NCBI RefSeq assembly: GCF_003334785.1
Contig: NZ_QOWV01000039.1
Origin: Escherichia coli
Lineage (GTDB): Bacteria > Pseudomonadota > Gammaproteobacteria > Enterobacterales > Enterobacteriaceae
DNA length: 6,249 nucleotides
Strand: one strand, 5' to 3'
Shown: positions 1 through 6,249 of the stretch, piece by piece
Position numbering within the stretch: the first letter of the stretch is position 1
Layout: the number at the start of each line of letters is the position of its first letter
Program-made: the position numbers and the translations under genes
The notes under the pieces: generated by a model
Seen by the model: only the letters and a program-made list of their open reading frames with translations
Databases searched by the model: none
Told to the model about the DNA's origin: nothing

Positions 1-49
1 GAATGGCCCTCCAACCGTGTTGACGAACTCCTGCCATGGAACGTAGTAC

Positions 50-379
50 TCACCAATAAATAAGCGTCAATACGGTGCTCCGTTGACGCTTACAGAGAAT
101 GCGTTTGACCGCCTCGCTATATACTTCCGAGCGTTCTCTTTTCCCAACAGAAATCACGAAAACGACAACTTTCTCGTCTATAACCTGGTATACAAGGCGA
201 TAGCCTGAAGACCGGAGCTTAATCTTGTAACAATCAGGCATACCACGGAGCTTGTTTGCTTCAATCCGGGGTGACTCAAGTACTTCAACCAGCTTCTTTT
301 TCAACTGTTCACGTACCGTCGAGCCCAGCTTTCGCCATTCCTTTAGTGCCCGCTCGTCAAAATCCAGAAAATACGCCAT
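50..379 (-). CDS. relE: RelE mRNA-interferase toxin (RelE/ParE family), 109 aa; first 95 aa match E. coli RelE as recalled, followed by a 14-aa C-terminal extension
   Basis: Translation MAYFLDFDERALKEWRKLGSTV...VYSEAVKRIL is recognisably RelE; start codon shares one base with the relB stop (TGATG); the gene sits directly downstream of relB on the same strand. Confidence 0.9.
   Translation of the reverse strand: MAYFLDFDERALKEWRKLGSTVREQLKKKLVEVLESPRIEANKLRGMPDCYKIKLRSSGYRLVYQVIDEKVVVFVISVGKRERSEVYSEAVKRILCKRQRSTVLTLIYW
53..91 (-). terminator. Stem-loop (9-bp stem 62-70/83-91, inner CGG/CCG pairs) followed on the minus strand by UAUUUAUU; probable terminator or mRNA fold at the relE 3' end
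   Basis: Inverted repeat AAGCGTCAA...TTGACGCTT read directly; U-rich tract follows on the minus strand. The extended relE ORF reads through it. Confidence 0.4.
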
Positions 380-618
380 CAGAGTTCATCCAGCGTCACA
401 CGTACTGGCTTAGGATTACGAAGCCGTTCTTTCACTATCTCCACAAGTTCAGCATCTTCATCACTCAGGAGTGTCTGTTTGAACGGCAAGCGTTCATTGT
501 CAGCGATATACTCGAGCATGAGACGAAGCGCTTCAGAAGGAGTTACACCCATTTTTTCAAGCGCGGCGTAAGAACGCGCTTTAAGTTCATCGTCAATACG
601 CAGGTTAATGCTACCCAT
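379..618 (-). CDS. relB: RelB antitoxin, 79 aa
   Basis: Translation MGSINLRIDDELKARSYA...PKPVRVTLDEL matches RelB as recalled; GAGGTG Shine-Dalgarno about 6 nt upstream of the ATG; overlaps the relE start. Confidence 0.92.
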   Translation of the reverse strand: MGSINLRIDDELKARSYAALEKMGVTPSEALRLMLEYIADNERLPFKQTLLSDEDAELVEIVKERLRNPKPVRVTLDEL

Positions 619-700
619 GTCTTACACCTCTTGTAATTACAAATGTCATTACAAGTATCGCACTACAACATGCTTAGGGCAAGTCACGAAGGAAGTCAGA
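619..700 (-). promoter_or_regulatory. relBE promoter region with relO-type operator (perfect 12-bp palindrome TTGTAATTACAA at 631-642, plus partial repeat to 655)
   Basis: Palindrome read directly, immediately upstream of relB; consistent with RelB/RelE autoregulation at an operator overlapping the promoter. Exact -35/-10 positions not resolved by eye. Confidence 0.6.
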
Positions 701-948
701 AAGTAGTCGTAAGAACGGTGATCACTGTCCGCTTTGTGCCAGGAGCAGCCATTGCTAAGTCCATCCTGTATTGTGCAGGTCAGCTCGTTTTTAAAGAGTC
801 CGGCCATCATCTTACTGGTACAGACACCATATACTTTGTGACGGTCAGGCTACATATGCACAACTCAACTTATTCATCTATTTTTTGCTTTAGCATGTCA
901 GTGTTGCTTTCTCGTCGGCGGGTGAGCGGTGACCTGACCTGTCGATAA
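643..948 (+). CDS. ydfV: Hypothetical protein, 101 aa, in the position and of the size of E. coli ydfV (divergent from relB)
   Basis: ORF of the expected length between relB and flxA; no recognisable Shine-Dalgarno; the start lies inside the relO operator. Protein sequence not independently recognised. Confidence 0.35.
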   Translation: MSLQVSHYNMLRASHEGSQKVVVRTVITVRFVPGAAIAKSILYCAGQLVFKESGHHLTGTDTIYFVTVRLHMHNSTYSSIFCFSMSVLLSRRRVSGDLTCR

Positions 949-1100
949 AGGAACGTAACACGTTTTATGCAACACCCGCATGCGGCAGAAAATTATTGCC
1001 GAACGTTTACCCCTGTCAACAAGCTTTACTTTCTGAGGCGCGCCAGCCCGCGAGGAAAACAATCTGAACATCAAACAATTAATGACACAAGAAATACGAT

Positions 1101-1127
1101 TAAAGATTTTTTTGTGCATGCCGATAG
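1101..1127 (+). promoter_or_regulatory. sigma28 (FliA)-type promoter: TAAAGATT, 11-bp spacer, GCCGATAG
   Basis: Matches the sigma28 consensus TAAAGTTT-N11-GCCGATAA at 7/8 and 7/8 with the exact spacer, about 24 bp upstream of the flxA start; flxA is a known FliA-dependent gene. Confidence 0.6.
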
Positions 1128-1150
1128 TGCTTTTTTAAAAGGAGAAATCT

Positions 1151-1483
1151 ATGTCTGTCACAATTCAGGGAAATACCTCAACCGTTATTTCAAACAACTC
1201 CGCCCCGGAAGGAACATCAGAAATAGCCAAAATCACAAGACAAATTCAGGTGCTGACTGAAAAGCTTGGGAAAATCTCATCGGAAGAGGGGATGACGACA
1301 CAGCAGAAAAAAGAAATGGCTGCATTGGTACAGAAGCAAATTGAAAGCCTCTGGGCTCAACTGGAGCAGTTGTTAAGGCAGCAGGCAGAGAAAAAGAATG
1401 AAGACGCGACAGTTCAGCCTGATAAAAAAGAAGAGAAAAAAGACGATACAAATACCGCTGGCACCATTGATATTTACGTCTAA
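1151..1483 (+). CDS. flxA: FlxA-like protein (FliA-regulated), 110 aa
   Basis: AAGGAG Shine-Dalgarno about 6 nt upstream of the ATG; translation MSVTIQGNTSTVISNNSAPEG... with a Q/E/K-rich coiled-coil-like centre; gene order relB-ydfV-flxA as in the Qin prophage. Confidence 0.85.
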   Translation: MSVTIQGNTSTVISNNSAPEGTSEIAKITRQIQVLTEKLGKISSEEGMTTQQKKEMAALVQKQIESLWAQLEQLLRQQAEKKNEDATVQPDKKEEKKDDTNTAGTIDIYV

Positions 1484-1497
1484 GTGACAGCCGTATT

Positions 1498-1522
1498 GTG
1501 GCCCTCATCGGGCCACTTTTCG
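1498..1522 (+). terminator. Rho-independent terminator downstream of flxA
   Basis: GTGGCCC-tcatc-GGGCCAC hairpin followed by TTTTC, 15 bp after the flxA stop. Confidence 0.6.
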
Positions 1523-1570
1523 CCATCAGCCTTTTCTTTAAAGACATATTATCTTTGTATCATTTCTGAT

Positions 1571-3419
1571 AGTTAACATTACAAGATATAAGTAATGGAC
1601 GCACTCCCAATTAGTCTATTTAAATCGCCACGAGTTTAACTGACAACCCATGATCAATTATGAATTGCAACTATTTCTGTAGTCACTTTTGTGGGGACAG
1701 TCCACAAAACTGCCAACTTCCGCTTCTTGCTCTTAGCGGACATTAGCATAGGCTATTTACCATAACGCCTCATTACGCGCACCGCCCAGACTGACTCAGC
1801 GCGTTTCTGGCATATCCCCGGTAAAACAAGTAACAAACCACCCGAAAATGAACACCAGAAACGCGACTTAAGAATCTACCCTATGAATGGATATGCACTC
1901 AACCGAATCGATCTTGGTTTCAATCTTTTTTATCGGGATCAGGCTTCTTTTTAGGTAACTTCGGGGGCTTAACTTGCTGATGACTTTGCGTTCGGCGCGT
2001 AAGCCAGGGATGGTCAGCTTTAGGTTTAACATAGTATTTTGAGCGTAAATCAATACGGGCATTATCCACTCGTTCATGGACACTCTTTTCATCATCCAGT
2101 GGTATAGGCTCCGGGCCATCAACATACTTTTCCCAGCCCAGCGCTTTCCCGTCATACAGAACGTTAATTTCACCGTCAAAGTTCTCGCATACAGTAACAA
2201 CCGAATGCCTAAGTCGATATCCCCGGCCCTCACTGCGTACCTGAAACGCACTGCTTTTGTACTGGAAAGTGAGATTTTTAGACAGAACGCGCTTCGCCTG
2301 TAGGCTGAAGATATAACCCAGTTCCTCTTCAGAATGGTGCACATCAAGATGAGCATTATCAGTAGTACGAGGCGACGTAGCGAACCGGTTGTTATAGGCT
2401 TCAATAAAGGTCGGCAACCATGCATTTGCTGTTTCAATATCACTGATATTCTGAAGCCGCATTTCTTTGACCAGCCTGTCCTGTAGTGTCTGATTGGCGC
2501 GCTCTACCCGCCCTTTTGCCTGCGGGCTGTTGGCATGGATTGGCTCGATGCCCAGTGTCTTTATCGCACGAGTGAACTGGGTCAGCTCACCTTCCCGCTC
2601 TGGGTTATTTACCCTGAATATACTGTGTCTATCAGAGTAGAGAGCGAGCGGTACGCCATGATCATTAAGGTAACCCCGGAGGGTTTCCATGTAAGCCCGG
2701 GTTGTTTCAGCAGGCACAAAACGCAACGCCATCAACGCACTGGTGGCATCATCAATGAAAACGATCAGTGTACATCTGGGGCCTCGATTTTCAAACCAGT
2801 CATGAGGTGAGCCATCAATCTGGATCAGTTCACCGTAAGATGGTCGTCGCATGCGGCGTTGATATATACGGGCAATTTTACGACGGCGTTCACGCCATAA
2901 CCCCTCTTCTATCATCCACTTTCTGAGAGTTTCAACGGATAAAGATAAACCGTGTATCTCGCGCAATTTTTCGCACGCAAACGTAGGTCCAAAATCAGCG
3001 TAACGGCCTTTGAGGAGTGAAATTACTGTTGCTCTGAATTCAGTAGAAAAGGAATTATTAGGACGCTTTCCACGTCGGTGGGAAACCAGACCAGAAGGCC
3101 CTTCATTTCTATACCGTTGCACCAGACGTTTAACCTGCCGAATAGAAATGCCAATGCGTGCCGCAGCTTGTTCCTGAATAATCTGAAGTCGGTGGAGTTC
3201 CTTATGACTCATCGTAACAGTCTCTTTGATCATGAAAAATCCCCCAGAGAATTGTCTGGGGACATTTTAGAATGGTTCAAAGGGGACATTACAGCTTGGT
3301 GTTAACAATAGCCTGCTTCTCCGTGCCTTTCGGCACGTAAGAGGCTAACCTACATGTGTCTAGCATGAAATTGGCCTCAGATTAATGTTAAGCGTCTTGC
3401 AGGACGCGTAATGTTAACT
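1571..3419 (-). mobile_element. ISNCY-family (IS1202-group-like) insertion sequence; boundaries tentative
   Basis: Boundaries are placed at a perfect 12-bp inverted repeat (AGTTAACATTAC at 1571-1582; GTAATGTTAACT at 3408-3419) bracketing the transposase gene. No target-site duplication was found and a 12-mer match could arise by chance in 6 kb. Confidence 0.35.
1920..3233 (-). CDS. ISNCY-family DDE transposase (IS481/IS1202-like), 437 aa
   Basis: N-terminal helix-turn-helix (AARIGISIRQVKRLVQRY); integrase-type catalytic core with D in IQIDGS, D in FIDDATS and E in SPQAKGRVERANQTL; lysine/proline-rich C-terminal tail. An alternative ATG at 3212 (MSHKEL...) is in frame. Confidence 0.9.
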   Translation of the reverse strand: MIKETVTMSHKELHRLQIIQEQAAARIGISIRQVKRLVQRYRNEGPSGLVSHRRGKRPNNSFSTEFRATVISLLKGRYADFGPTFACEKLREIHGLSLSVETLRKWMIEEGLWRERRRKIARIYQRRMRRPSYGELIQIDGSPHDWFENRGPRCTLIVFIDDATSALMALRFVPAETTRAYMETLRGYLNDHGVPLALYSDRHSIFRVNNPEREGELTQFTRAIKTLGIEPIHANSPQAKGRVERANQTLQDRLVKEMRLQNISDIETANAWLPTFIEAYNNRFATSPRTTDNAHLDVHHSEEELGYIFSLQAKRVLSKNLTFQYKSSAFQVRSEGRGYRLRHSVVTVCENFDGEINVLYDGKALGWEKYVDGPEPIPLDDEKSVHERVDNARIDLRSKYYVKPKADHPWLTRRTQSHQQVKPPKLPKKKPDPDKKD

Positions 3420-3567
3420 GGGGCTTTTCTCTATCTGCCGTTGGTGTCCATGCCCGAGGCAGATAGCCTCAAGCACCCGCAGTCATTCTACTTAACTAAG
3501 ATTTCCCCGCAAACCGTTTTTGTCCAGCACAGTAAATATCCAACTAAACCAATGGAGTTCGCTGTAT

Positions 3568-3747
3568 TTACCGCCAGTATTCAATGCACATGACCGCCAT
3601 GAACACCCCTAAAAAAAGGGCATTTATATATCCAAATATTAATATCAAAACATCAACTTTTTCCATATACCTTGCTGTGAAGATGATGGGCATACATGAT
3701 GCGAACAACCAGAACGCAACAAACAAAAACTGCAATGCGTTTTTCAT
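3568..3747 (-). CDS. Small hydrophobic membrane protein, 59 aa, two predicted transmembrane helices
   Basis: Consensus AGGAGG Shine-Dalgarno 5 nt upstream of the ATG at 3747; translation MKNALQFLFVAFWLFASCMPIIFTARYMEKVDVLILIFGYINALFLGVFMAVMCIEYWR. The ORF-track version (start 3786) has no ribosome-binding site. Confidence 0.45.
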   Translation of the reverse strand: MKNALQFLFVAFWLFASCMPIIFTARYMEKVDVLILIFGYINALFLGVFMAVMCIEYWR

Positions 3748-4001
3748 TATTCCTCCTACAATCAATGTGCAATTACATTTAAACACACCTCAATTTGGCC
3801 GGACATATAAATATCTAAACCAGAAAAAATCACTTACATAGCGTTACAAACTCTTTAGTCTAAAGGTTCATCGTAAAACATTCCCCATACTTATCAGTCC
3901 GTTCCGCGCCAGGTAGCTCATTGCCTTATCTGGCAACCTGTAATCAGGTTTCCGCTTTTTCAGTTGGCTGGTCGTTTAACCGACATAGTTAATCCATTAA
4001 T

Positions 4002-4289
4002 CTAGTTGCCGGATGTTGGTGGATTTTCGCGTTTTAGTTGTTCATAAAAGTGCACAGCTTTAACCAGTTCTTCTGATGTAACTGGGACTGGTGAGGCAGT
4101 GAATAAGGCCTGAATTTGATAGTTCGGCCTGTCGTTACAATCCTCTTTTTTCGGTACATATTTCCAGTCACCAGACCACTACTTCCCCTGAAAGTCCGTA
4201 ACGCCTTTTTTCACGTAGCGATATCGCCATGCCACTGGTTTTGCTTGCCCCGCCGTTTCATGCCCTTCCTGATAATTAATCTCGCTCAT
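4002..4289 (-). pseudogene. Small prophage-like ORF (about 95 codons) interrupted by an in-frame amber codon at 4179-4181
   Basis: Reads MSEINYQEGHETAGQAKPVAWRYRYVKKGVTDFQGK-TAG-WSGDWKYVPKKEDCNDRPNYQIQ...; its ATG overlaps the TGA of the upstream ORF (ATGA). Confidence 0.25.
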
Positions 4290-4477
4290 TCATCGCCCCA
4301 CTCATCACAATATGCTTCGACCGGAGTTTTTCCCGCTTCATAGTCATCACGCTAGGATTCGACATCAGCAGCACTTCCACCGCGTAACTCACCATAGTCC
4401 ATTAATAGTTCATCCCGCTCTTCAAAACTGATGTTATATTTAGCTGAACAAAAATCAGCCACTTTGTTCTTCCTCAT
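4286..4477 (-). pseudogene. Small acidic ORF (about 63 codons) interrupted by an in-frame amber codon at 4352-4354
   Basis: Reads MRKNKVADFCSAKYNISFEERDELLMDYGELRGGSAADVES-TAG-RDDYEAGKTPVEAYCDEWGDE; an internal GTG at codon 6 is preceded by GAGGAAG; stop overlaps the next start. Confidence 0.2.
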
Positions 4478-4899
4478 CGTCTTTTATTTCGTGGTATGAG
4501 TAATTGCAGTAGTTAAAGAAAATTTCTTATGCTCCGTCATGAATTTCCTCAGGTGTTGCGTCATCGTCCACTTCGAATACATCCTCAAAATCTCCACCAG
4601 CTATTCCCGTTTCAATAATAATTTTGAACTTTCGCATTTCACTACCGCCCTTTCGGGCGGCCTCCTGATGTTCTGAGGGTGCAGAAATCCATCCGGTTAA
4701 GGATTAAATTTTATTTACAGAACTGAATTTAATTATTCAGATATACGTATCTGTAGCCTTACGAATCTACTCACTGGATGCCTCTTTCATAAAAATAATC
4801 CAGTGGGTTTTATCGTTTTTTCCCTGTTCGTTGACAGATAACAGGTTTTCTGTCTGTCAGTGCCAGAATCTGGCTTACCGGTATTTGCGTTTCATTCCA

Positions 4900-5256
4900 T
4901 TAAAAAATCAGAACGCCGTGCGGCCTCAACACCCGAAAGGCTTCTTTAAATCTCTGTCGCGAATCATCACGCCAGGCATCTTTATTCAGCCGTCCATATT
5001 TCTTTCCCATCCAGGCGTTATCACCAACACTCTCAAGATGCGGAGGGTCTAATACAACCATCGAAAAAGATGCGTCTGCAAATGATAATGCACGAAAATC
5101 TGCGATAATGTCAGGGCTGATAATCAAGCGTCTCCCATTGCGTAATGTGTATCCTTCTTTTCTGATATCGCTGAATATCGCCCGTTCGTCAGACTTATCG
5201 AACCAGAACATGCGGCTGCCACAGCACATATCAAGAATGGTTGCCGGTGCACTCAC
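4900..5256 (-). CDS. Putative SAM-dependent methyltransferase (motif I ILDMCCGS; motif IV VVLDPPH), 118 aa; probably cut short by a premature TAA
   Basis: GTG start overlapping the stop of the upstream ORF; motif I and a DPPH motif about 55 residues apart, as in small N6-adenine/N4-cytosine-type methyltransferases; after the TAA at 4900-4902 the same frame stays open 29 codons (WNETQIPVSQILALTDRKPVICQRTGKKR). Confidence 0.6.
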   Translation of the reverse strand: MSAPATILDMCCGSRMFWFDKSDERAIFSDIRKEGYTLRNGRRLIISPDIIADFRALSFADASFSMVVLDPPHLESVGDNAWMGKKYGRLNKDAWRDDSRQRFKEAFRVLRPHGVLIF

Positions 5257-5519
5257 TGCGCCACGTCCTGAAAATTACCCTGATAGAAAGCCAGTATGCG
5301 CTGCATAACTTCGCTCTTCCGGCACTCGCGACAGATTATGTTTAGGCGACTGTCGTAGCGACGTATTTCTCCGTCAGGTGATGACCAGATAAGGTCCGGA
5401 TCAACCACAGCAGGTTTCTTCACCTTTGCCCTCGAGAGTTTTTTGCGGGCGTTTTGCCAGTCCTTACGCGCCTGTTCAGAGGGGAATAACCCGTATCCGG
5501 AGCTTAAGTTGCACGCCAT
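5253..5519 (-). CDS. Hypothetical basic protein, 88 aa (contains CRECRK), coupled to the methyltransferase gene
   Basis: Stop overlaps the methyltransferase GTG start (GTGA); no clear Shine-Dalgarno; its 5' end overlaps the longest version of the opposite-strand ORF. Confidence 0.3.
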   Translation of the reverse strand: MACNLSSGYGLFPSEQARKDWQNARKKLSRAKVKKPAVVDPDLIWSSPDGEIRRYDSRLNIICRECRKSEVMQRILAFYQGNFQDVAQ

Positions 5520-5892
5520 TGGGTGGGTTAAGCATAAATGTATTCCTGGTGCTAAATGGCCCGAAATTCAGGCAGAGATGCGCATCTGGAAAAAACGTCG
5601 CGAAGGTGAACGCAAGGAAACCGGAAAATACACGTCTGTTGTTGATCTCGCCCGCGCCAGAGCCAATCAACAGTACACTGAAAATTCAACAGGAAAAATC
5701 AGCCCGGTCATTGCTGCCATTCATCGCGAATACAAGCAGACATGGAAAACACTGGATGACGAACTGGCCTACGCTCTCTGGCCTAGTGATGTGGATGCCG
5801 GAAACATTGACGGCAGCATCCATCGCTGGGCAAAAAAAGAAGTTATCGACAACGACCGCGAAGACTGGAAGCGTGAGGTGTACTGGCAATAG
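5443..5892 (+). CDS. Hypothetical protein of unknown function (149 aa from TTG 5443; alternative starts TTG 5509 with a GGAG site, or ATG 5578)
   Basis: Long open frame with mixed charged composition (…KISPVIAAIHREYKQTWKTLDDELAYALWPSDVDAGNIDGSIHRWAKKEVIDNDREDWKREVYWQ); the 3' end abuts or lies within the IS3-family terminus. Confidence 0.45.
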   Translation: MRAFCQSLRACSEGNNPYPELKLHAIGWVKHKCIPGAKWPEIQAEMRIWKKRREGERKETGKYTSVVDLARARANQQYTENSTGKISPVIAAIHREYKQTWKTLDDELAYALWPSDVDAGNIDGSIHRWAKKEVIDNDREDWKREVYWQ

Positions 5893-6249
5893 CGGACACT
5901 ACCATTTGTTCTTTTTTTAAGCAGCCATCTGATGATATTTTTCCCTGAAGGCTGCCGGGGAGATATTCCCCAGACGAGAGTGACGACGCTGACGATTGTA
6001 GAAAATCTCAATGTATTCCCGTATTACTGAGATGGCTTCATCCCGGTTATTAAAACGATAGTGGCTCAGGCTCTCATTTTTCAGCGTTCCCCAGAAGCTT
6101 TCCATCGGAGCGTTGTCGTAACAGTTACCTTTACGCGACATTGATGTTTTCAGACCAAACTGCTCCTGTATGACCCGGTAATCGTATGCGCAGTACTGTG
6201 AACCTCGATCGGAGTGGTGGATTAGCACGGCAGGTGGGCGCTGGCTCCT
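5874..6249 (-). mobile_element. IS3-family insertion sequence, partial (continues beyond window); terminus near 5874-5900
   Basis: Transposase OrfB C-terminus ends at 5917; the adjacent GGCAATAGCGGACAC (5885-5899) resembles the IS3 terminal repeat as recalled (GCAATAGTGGACAC). Exact terminal base uncertain by about 10 bp. Confidence 0.6.
5917..6249 (-). CDS. IS3-family transposase OrfB (integrase core), C-terminal part; 5' end lies outside the window
   Basis: Translation ...VLIHHSDRGSQYCAYDYR...MSRKGNCYDNAPMESFWGTLKNE...YNRQRRHSRLGNISPAAF carries the IS3-family DDE-region signatures (HSDRGSQY; KGNCYDNAPMESF); the frame stays open to the window edge. Confidence 0.9.
   Translation of the reverse strand, partial: RSQRPPAVLIHHSDRGSQYCAYDYRVIQEQFGLKTSMSRKGNCYDNAPMESFWGTLKNESLSHYRFNNRDEAISVIREYIEIFYNRQRRHSRLGNISPAAFREKYHQMAA

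What the first reader, a model, noticed from the sequence alone, without database searches (positions are those of the whole stretch)
4002..5256. Three consecutive minus-strand genes each interrupted by a single nonsense codon with the frame preserved
The methyltransferase-like gene stops at TAA (4900-4902) but stays open 29 more codons. The next two small ORFs each contain one in-frame TAG (4352-4354; 4179-4181) with protein-like sequence on both sides. Start/stop overlaps (GTGA and ATGA) indicate translational coupling. Single-codon lesions without frameshifts suggest recent inactivation of an operon; the alternative, expression only in a nonsense-suppressor background, is unlikely but not excluded.
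Basis: seen in the sequence. Interest (0 to 1): 0.55.

Follow-up and report, generated by a model that had tools for sequence, protein, structure and literature searches.

The report
Decayed genes in Qin cryptic prophage
The stop codons are real, but they are old, fixed lesions in a row of dead accessory genes of the Qin cryptic prophage of E. coli, already flagged as pseudogenes by standard annotation, so this is ordinary prophage decay.

Summary
The picture is nevertheless incomplete. The window is the Qin-type lambdoid cryptic prophage of E. coli (relBE, flxA, IS elements). The region is its accessory operon downstream of the replication genes: lygF/DUF977 – DNA methyltransferase – DUF7167 – two small genes. 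Intact homologs in phages and prophages carry sense codons at every stop. They are AAA→TAA (methyltransferase), TGG→TAG (gene B) and CAG→TAG (gene C). The frame is not preserved everywhere. The methyltransferase also has a +1 G frameshift (4822-4824). Gene C has a second amber (4002-4004) and a roughly 5-nt deletion. The 1.6 kb is 100% identical in hundreds of independent complete E. coli genomes. All lesions are shared with a haplotype that differs by 0.8%. They are therefore neither sequencing errors nor recent. Four nonsense changes among 50 lineage-private substitutions is close to the neutral expectation (2.5; P=0.24). Suppressor-dependent expression is excluded by mixed TAA/TAG plus frameshifts. 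NCBI's PGAP already marks these genes "internal stop; frameshifted". Verdict: ordinary neutral decay of a cryptic prophage, low interest.

The parts
5253..5504 (-). 3' fragment of lygF (DUF977 / Ren-like exclusion protein). The N-terminus was lost by deletion. Its stop overlaps the methyltransferase start (GTGA).
   Evidence: PGAP marks it 'incomplete; missing N-terminus' on identical sequence. Similarity to the intact lygF of strain H15 ends at about 5504. It matches phrog_142.
4767..5256 (-). Pseudogene of a phage DNA methyltransferase (phrog_954 type, DPPH motif). The intact length is about 162 aa.
   Evidence: The repaired product matches phrog_954 over residues 5-161. It also matches 244 phage records over >=80% of its length. 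It was aligned to intact alleles L008, L010 and L028. PGAP calls the H15 copy 'frameshifted; internal stop'.
4900..4902 (-). Ochre codon TAA in the methyltransferase. The ancestral codon is AAA (Lys); T5A3 became T6A2.
   Evidence: all intact homologs read TTT AAA TGG.
4822..4824 (-). +1 G insertion (GGG versus GG) that frameshifts the methyltransferase. It creates a secondary TAA at 4810-4812.
   Evidence: alignment. In one search the tblastn match to the identical PhiR42_1 allele stops at residue 146 of 162.
4455..4637 (-). DUF7167 gene (gene A, 60 codons), a pseudogene.
   Evidence: PGAP marks it 'DUF7167 family protein, internal stop'. It matches phrog_1997 at full length. There are 94 intact 60-aa alleles among the surveyed loci.
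4527..4529 (-). Ochre codon TAA in gene A. The ancestral codon is AAA (Lys).
4286..4462 (-). Gene B (58 codons, phrog_519 C-terminal type), a pseudogene.
   Evidence: There are 101 intact alleles.
4352..4354 (-). Amber codon TAG in gene B. The ancestral codon is TGG (Trp37). The site reads CCTAG, as expected from a Dcm site CCTGG.
3868..4289 (-). Gene C (phrog_660 type; intact relatives are about 119-131 aa), a pseudogene with several lesions. Its ATG overlaps the stop of gene B (ATGA).
   Evidence: PGAP marks it 'frameshifted; internal stop' at exactly these coordinates. Intact alleles were seen.
4179..4181 (-). First amber codon in gene C. Intact alleles have CAG, CCG, CTG, ATG or TGG here.
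4002..4004 (-). It aligns with CAG of the intact allele in L085.
   Evidence: The alignment in this 3' part is only moderately similar.
3957..3961 (-). Deletion of about 5 nt (3+2) that frameshifts the 3' end of gene C. The conserved tail LPDKAMSYLARNGLISMGNVLR is in another frame.

Best explanation
The region is the accessory ('nin-like') rightward operon of a Qin-type lambdoid cryptic prophage of E. coli. In this prophage lineage the operon is dead. Four consecutive genes have accumulated five nonsense substitutions and at least two frameshifting indels. The genes are a DNA methyltransferase, a DUF7167 gene and two small genes of unknown function. The lesions arose by ordinary neutral mutation after selection on these phage genes lapsed. 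They are inherited vertically, or spread by recombination, together with the prophage. In the window's strain the segment is further cut off from its promoter by a deletion and by IS elements.

Shown: the lesions, their ancestral codons, their fixation across many genomes, and a nonsense count compatible with neutrality.

Inferred: absence of function and expression, and the mutational routes. The proposed routes are 5-methylcytosine deamination at a CCTGG Dcm site for the gene B amber, and a change at a homopolymer junction for the methyltransferase ochre.
For: Context. relE, relB, flxA, an ISNCY transposase and an IS600 fragment are in the window. Identical sequence in complete genomes lies between ydfU/rem/hokD/relBE/flxA and the exonuclease, integrase and ynfA side of Qin.

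Ancestral codons. AAA, AAA, TGG and CAG stand at the four stops in intact alleles from phages, prophages and 120 IMG/VR loci.

Homology across the stops. The repaired proteins match full-length PHROG profiles. The methyltransferase matches 244 phage records over >=80% of its length.

Extra lesions. There is a +1 G in the methyltransferase and a second amber plus a roughly 5-nt deletion in gene C. Relatives of the same gene C allele add A-run slippage, with 6, 7 or 8 A's, which is typical progressive decay.

Fixation and age. The sequence is 100% identical in many unrelated complete genomes. All lesions are shared with the H15 haplotype, which differs at 13 of about 1650 sites.

Neutral test. 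There are 50 lineage-private substitutions, of which 4 are nonsense. The expectation is 2.5 and P=0.24.

Independent annotation. PGAP flags gene A as 'internal stop', gene C as 'frameshifted; internal stop', and the methyltransferase as 'frameshifted; internal stop' in strain H15.
Against: For the three small genes alone, 3 nonsense among 18 private substitutions is a mild excess (expected 1.0, P=0.07).

The amber at Trp37 of gene B also occurs on two other allele backgrounds, each seen once (L004 and L022).

The methyltransferase family was inactivated independently in an O157:H7 prophage.

These points could hint at selection for loss, or at a hotspot, rather than pure drift.

PGAP leaves the 118-aa truncated methyltransferase unflagged in most genomes. 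Residual function of that fragment is therefore not formally excluded. No expression data were available.
Confidence: 0.92

Rival explanations
1. Selection-driven inactivation ('domestication'). The host benefited from knocking out these phage genes, for example a foreign DNA methyltransferase or small host-takeover proteins. Nonsense mutations were therefore favoured rather than merely tolerated.
For: There is a mild excess of nonsense changes in the three small genes (3/18, P=0.07). The homologous methyltransferase was inactivated independently by a different amber in the O157:H7 prophage copy, and it is truncated in phage HannyBb. The Trp37 amber of gene B recurs on other backgrounds.
Against: Over all four genes the nonsense count fits neutrality (P=0.24). 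One knockout per gene would suffice, yet lesions keep piling up, with frameshifts, a second amber and A-run slippage. The recurrent gene B ambers are rare singletons: only one such locus exists in all of IMG/VR. Intact alleles are abundant in other prophages of the same species.
Confidence: 0.06
2. The genes are functional and are expressed by stop-codon readthrough, either through a nonsense-suppressor tRNA in the host or through programmed recoding.
For: The reading frame and protein-like sequence continue beyond each of the first stops. The same stops persist unchanged in hundreds of genomes.
Against: Two stop types are involved (TAA x2, TAG x3). Frameshifts in the methyltransferase and in gene C cannot be suppressed. 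Homologs carry sense codons at these sites, so the stops are not a conserved family feature. There is no tRNA gene in the window. TAG is itself the proper terminator of intact methyltransferase alleles. In the window's strain the operon is severed from its upstream promoter region.
Confidence: 0.01
3. The stops are sequencing or assembly errors in this window.
For: None specific. The methyltransferase TAA and the +1 G lie at homopolymer junctions, where some platforms err.
Against: The sequence is identical in hundreds of independently sequenced complete genomes and in a phage record. A diverged haplotype carries the same lesions.
Confidence: 0.01

Closest known systems
Qin (Kim) cryptic lambdoid prophage of E. 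coli, with dicA/dicC, dicB/dicF, relBE, hokD and flxA
   Same: The flanking genes and their order are the same: relE, relB, ydfV, flxA, the ydfW/ISNCY remnant and, further on, hokD, rem, ydfU and ydfT. It is a defective, IS-riddled, vertically inherited prophage.
   Different: From my own knowledge of the K-12 map, the K-12 copy lacks the O-lygF-methyltransferase-A-B-C segment. The window's version retains that segment as pseudogenes, and it carries additional IS66-like and IS600 pieces.
Intact accessory operons of inducible lambdoid phages such as vB_EcoS-689R5, vB_EcoS-640R1 and Stx2c-converting phages
   Same: The gene order is the same: O - lygF - (methyltransferase or another module) - 60-aa DUF7167 - 58-aa gene - roughly 119-aa gene. 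The 8-nt and 4-nt start/stop overlaps are also the same. DNA identity is 88-92%.
   Different: Those copies have sense codons at all the stop positions and full-length ORFs. Some show their own single lesions: 640R1 has a +2 A frameshift in gene C, and 606R7 has an amber in gene B.
Pseudogenised prophage genes in E. coli O157:H7 and Shigella, and the general pattern of defective-prophage decay. The last is from my own knowledge of the literature on prophage domestication, for example Bobay, Touchon and Rocha 2014.
   Same: Point nonsense mutations, homopolymer frameshifts, IS insertions and deletions accumulate in prophage accessory genes, while toxin-antitoxin and a few other modules stay intact. 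The O157:H7 copy of the same methyltransferase has an independent amber.
   Different: Nothing of substance. This is one more instance.

Membership tests
Pseudogenes of a Qin-type cryptic prophage | Located inside the Qin prophage context of E. coli | tested here: met
   relBE, flxA, ydfV and the ydfW/ISNCY remnant are in the window. Identical sequence is annotated within Qin in complete genomes.
Pseudogenes of a Qin-type cryptic prophage | Intact homologs carry sense codons at the stop positions | tested here: met
   AAA (methyltransferase), AAA (gene A), TGG (gene B) and CAG/CCG/CTG/ATG/TGG (gene C) are seen in intact alleles.
Pseudogenes of a Qin-type cryptic prophage | Homology to full-length proteins continues downstream of the stop | tested here: met
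   PHROG profile coverage is 5-161/162 (methyltransferase), 1-57/60 (A), 1-58/58 (B) and 2-93/95 (C). tblastn was run for the methyltransferase.
Pseudogenes of a Qin-type cryptic prophage | Further disabling lesions, as expected for decay rather than a single regulated stop | tested here: met
   There is a +1 G in the methyltransferase, a second amber and a roughly 5-nt deletion in gene C, a 5' truncation of lygF, and A-run length variants in relatives.
Pseudogenes of a Qin-type cryptic prophage | No functional product is made | not testable with these tools
   This needs transcript, proteome or methylome data.
Programmed stop-codon readthrough / recoding | The stop codon is conserved at the same position across homologs | tested here: not met
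   The stops are confined to one prophage lineage. 94-101 surveyed loci have sense codons for genes A and B. The only exceptions are two singleton ambers in gene B.
Programmed stop-codon readthrough / recoding | The downstream frame is intact to a conserved C-terminus | tested here: not met
   The methyltransferase and gene C need frameshift repair as well.
Suppressor-dependent (amber/ochre) conditional genes | All lesions are suppressible by one suppressor tRNA that is available to the element | tested here: not met
   The lesions are mixed TAA and TAG plus frameshifts. There is no tRNA gene in the window. The host's tRNA set could not be examined.
Phage DNA methyltransferase (phrog_954; N6/N4 type with DPPH motif) | Full-length catalytic domain is encoded | tested here: not met
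   As encoded, the ORF ends after 118 of about 162 residues. The Pfam N6_N4_Mtase hit is weak (E=0.025). There was no PDB sequence relative.

The most novel reading that the evidence does not exclude
The lesions might not be purely neutral. E. coli may repeatedly disable this phage methyltransferase and the 58-aa gene B. Gene B could be hit through a mutational hotspot at Trp37, which sits in a Dcm CCTGG context in this lineage. That would imply selection against these phage accessory functions during prophage domestication. Alternatively, the 118-aa N-terminal fragment of the methyltransferase might be kept for some residual role.
Probability: 0.05. Interest if true: 0.3.

Novelty: already known. 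Interest (0 to 1): 0.08.

Why it matters
It matters little beyond annotation hygiene. It shows that a cluster of in-frame stops in a prophage can be fully explained by neutral decay. It also corrects two details. First, the widely propagated 118-aa 'class I SAM-dependent methyltransferase' (WP_001310834.1) is a truncated, frameshifted remnant. Second, the 58-codon gene B pseudogene is not annotated at all in the records examined. If the low-probability reading were true, meaning recurrent selected loss of a phage methyltransferase, it would be a small data point on prophage domestication.

Tried and rejected
NCBIfam gave no hit for any of the five repaired products. Pfam gave only weak methyltransferase hits. 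A PDB sequence search found nothing. I therefore could not say more about the methyltransferase's specificity or about what the small genes do.

Literature searches found nothing specific to this locus. I searched for 'PhiR42' and for Qin prophage, pseudogene and decay. Whether the ECOR13 element deposited as phage PhiR42_1 is actually inducible remains unknown. It carries the same lesions.

Pairwise pN/pS among the 'intact' alleles was 0.38-0.67. It was not informative, because the set includes non-homologous replacement modules and the genes are short. I did not use it.

A scan for an intact precursor of the window's gene B allele (TCC TGG) in IMG/VR found none. A scan for further GCA-TAG alleles found only the one already known. 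The 'recurrent amber' idea therefore stays anecdotal.

Suppressor, recoding and sequencing-error explanations were considered and rejected, as set out under the rival explanations.

Full report
**What the window is.** The ORF list shows RelE (50-379, minus strand), RelB (379-618, minus strand) and FlxA (1151-1483, plus strand). It also shows a 437-codon ISNCY-type transposase frame (1920-3233, minus strand) and an IS3-family transposase fragment (5917-6228, minus strand).

Megablast of window 93-6249 finds 100% identical stretches in many complete E. coli chromosomes. In those records the segment lies inside the Qin-type lambdoid prophage. It sits between ydfT/ydfU/rem/hokD/relBE/ydfV/flxA on one side and exonuclease, excisionase and integrase remnants on the other.

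In better-preserved copies the gene order on the window's minus strand is cI/dicA – cro/dicC – cII/ydaT – O – lygF (DUF977) – methyltransferase – three small genes. Examples are strain H15 and the ECOR13 element deposited as phage PhiR42_1. This is the accessory operon downstream of the replication genes.

**Checking the observation.** The minus-strand sequence and its translations confirm the stated stops.
- TAA at 4900-4902 ends a 118-codon methyltransferase ORF that starts at GTG 5256. Twenty-nine further open codons follow it.
- TAG lies in frame at 4352-4354.
- TAG lies in frame at 4179-4181.
- The GTGA overlap (5256-5253) and the ATGA overlap (4289-4286) are present.

This is a 60-codon DUF7167 gene (4637->4455) with an in-frame TAA at 4527-4529. 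It overlaps the following gene by 8 nt (GTGGCTGA, 4462-4455).

**Comparison with intact homologs.** Inducible-phage records vB_EcoS-640R1, vB_EcoM-606R7 and vB_EcoS-689R5 carry the same small genes as ORFs of 60, 58 and 85-119 codons, with the same overlaps. DNA alignments give the ancestral codons.
- Methyltransferase: TTT AAA TGG became TTT TAA TGG (Lys to ochre).
- Gene A: GCA AAA GA(A/T) became GCA TAA GAA (Lys to ochre).
- Gene B: TGG became TAG (Trp37 to amber).
- Gene C: CAG became TAG (Gln to amber). Intact alleles show CAG, CCG, CTG, ATG or TGG at this variable position.

I also ran a pattern scan of IMG/VR, which brought in 120 related loci. Reading the codons at the four sites in all loci shows that TAA/TAA/TAG/TAG occur together in one lineage. 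AAA and TGG are the rule elsewhere. Among the surveyed loci, 94 carry an intact gene A, 101 an intact gene B and 71 an intact gene C.

The repaired products match PHROG profiles over their full length.
- Methyltransferase: residues 5-161 against phrog_954, 'DNA methyltransferase', E=7e-80.
- Gene A: residues 1-57 against phrog_1997.
- Gene B: residues 1-58 against phrog_519.
- Gene C: residues 2-93 against phrog_660.

The repaired methyltransferase also matches 244 phage records over at least 80% of its length. Neither is met. These are true internal stops.

**More lesions than reported.** The methyltransferase has a one-base insertion 25 codons after the TAA. It reads ACA GGG AAA (GGG at 4824-4822), where three intact alleles read ACA GGA AAA. 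The conserved C-terminus KNDKTHWIIFMKEASSE, which ends at TAG 4769-4767, is therefore in a different frame. The '29 open codons' stop at a frameshift-generated TAA at 4812-4810.

Gene C does not end naturally at 4002-4004. Against the intact 131-aa allele in locus L085, that TAG aligns with CAG. A deletion of about 5 nt near 3957-3961 moves the conserved tail (LPDKAM.YL..NGLIS...) into another frame. This is exactly the 4289->3868 'frameshifted; internal stop' pseudogene that PGAP annotates on identical sequence.

Upstream, lygF is truncated at about 5504. It abuts a fragment of an exonuclease gene and an IS600 fragment, so in this strain the operon has also lost its promoter-proximal part.

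Relatives that share the window's gene C allele and its amber show additional slippage in the A-run at 4208-4213, with 6, 7 or 8 A's. This is typical of progressive decay.

**Age and reality of the lesions.** The 1611-bp query is 100.0% identical in the top 30 of 377 genomes that hold at least 80% of it. These come from humans, pigs, cattle, birds, food and the environment. The methyltransferase segment is at least 99% identical in 382 records and 95-99% identical in 98 more.

The 95-99% group is represented by strain H15. It differs from the window at 13 substitutions in about 1650 nt, yet it has every lesion. Sequencing error is therefore excluded. The lesions also predate the split of these haplotypes, so they are not recent. 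No intact precursor of the window's gene B allele exists in IMG/VR.

**Is the number of stops surprising?** I counted positions where the window differs from every intact allele sampled.
- Genes A, B and C have 18 such lineage-private substitutions: 5 synonymous, 10 non-synonymous and 3 nonsense (counting the gene C amber).
- The methyltransferase has 32: 15 synonymous, 16 non-synonymous and 1 nonsense.

With a transition:transversion weight of 2, between 3.8% and 6.2% of random substitutions in these genes create a stop. That gives 2.5 expected against 4 observed among 50, with P(>=4)=0.24. For the small genes alone it gives 1.0 expected against 3 observed, with P=0.07. This is compatible with neutral decay. 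The region was also picked out because of its stops, which biases towards an apparent excess.

**Mechanism.** The best-supported reading is loss of selective constraint on phage accessory genes in a prophage that no longer replicates as a phage. Random point mutations and homopolymer indels then accumulated.

Two mutational details are inferences from sequence context.
- The gene B amber lies in TCC-TAG-CG. The precursor CCTGG is a Dcm site, and deamination of 5-methylcytosine on the other strand gives CCTAG. This is the classical amber hotspot, from my own knowledge of Coulondre and Miller's lacI work.
- The methyltransferase ochre converts T5A3 to T6A2 at a homopolymer junction.

The independent amber in the O157:H7 copy of the methyltransferase (KDT*RDD) is likewise CCTGG to CCTAG.

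**Rivals.** Suppressor-dependent or programmed readthrough fails on five counts. Both TAA and TAG are involved. Frameshifts are present. Homologs have sense codons. TAG is used as the genuine terminator of the intact methyltransferase. The window encodes no tRNA.

Selection for inactivation cannot be excluded, but nothing requires it. The hints are the mild excess in the small genes, independent methyltransferase knock-outs, and the same Trp37 amber on two other backgrounds (L004 and L022). The last is rare, because only one such locus exists in IMG/VR.

**Comparison with the known.** This is the Qin cryptic prophage, and the phenomenon is standard prophage decay. NCBI's pipeline already labels gene A, gene C and, in some genomes, the methyltransferase as pseudogenes.

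The only additions here are small. The 118-aa 'class I SAM-dependent methyltransferase' protein (WP_001310834.1) is a truncated and frameshifted remnant. The gene B pseudogene is unannotated in the records examined.

Novelty: already known. Interest: low.

Noticed in passing
window 1-92 and 50-379: The first 92 bases are the end of an IS66-like element (ISEc47 family). It encodes the transposase C-terminus ...VDELLPWNVVLTNK* and has a GTAAGCG-type terminal repeat. The junction falls inside the relE stop codon: TGA in other genomes reads TGT here. The RelE ORF is therefore extended by 14 codons, to 109 aa instead of 95.
   Followed up: partly
window 3307-3478 (-): Rfam finds a full-length sok antitoxin RNA (RF01794, 104 bits). 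It lies between the gene C pseudogene and the ISNCY element. No intact hok-type ORF was seen next to it in the ORF list. Homologous phages have a 'host killer protein' gene at this place.
   Followed up: no
window 3568-3747 (-): An intact, unannotated 59-codon hydrophobic ORF (MKNALQFLFVAFWLF...MCIEYWR, two predicted membrane-spanning stretches) lies just downstream of the dead genes on the same strand. It is conserved with a few conservative changes in loci L003, L015, L053 and L123. It has no PHROG match. PGAP annotates nothing here.
   Followed up: partly
L004 (phage vB_EcoM-606R7) and L022 (IMG/VR), gene B: The same Trp37 TGG to TAG amber as in the window occurs on two other allele backgrounds whose flanking bases differ (GCA-TAG versus TCC-TAG). 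Each was seen once, and intact sister alleles exist (L045, L103). It may be a coincidence, a hotspot or a short-patch conversion from a co-resident Qin copy. This is unresolved.
   Followed up: partly
L009 (E. coli O157:H7 strain 2149), 2501-2974: A homologous methyltransferase in a different prophage is inactivated independently by TGG to TAG (KDT*RDD). This is again in a CCTGG Dcm context. It also shares a GAG to TAG change five codons before the normal end with the allele that PGAP treats as intact in L008.
   Followed up: partly
L003, L015, L024 and relatives; window 4208-4213: The A-run in gene C (AAAAAA in the window) varies between 6, 7 and 8 A's among loci that share the window's amber allele. 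This produces different spurious ORFs, which phage records annotate as 'hypothetical protein', for example the 85-aa product in vB_EcoS-640R1.
   Followed up: yes
window 1920-3233 (-): A single uninterrupted 437-codon ORF covers both the region PGAP annotates as 'ISNCY family transposase, missing C-terminus' (2190-3233) and the separate 49-aa 'protein YdfW' (1920-2069). The named K-12 protein YdfW therefore looks like the tail of this transposase frame.
   Followed up: no
window 4900-5256 (-): The truncated 118-aa methyltransferase is propagated in RefSeq as an apparently intact protein (WP_001310834.1, 'class I SAM-dependent methyltransferase'). The same gene in strain H15 is flagged 'frameshifted; internal stop'. 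The annotation of one lesion is inconsistent.
   Followed up: yes
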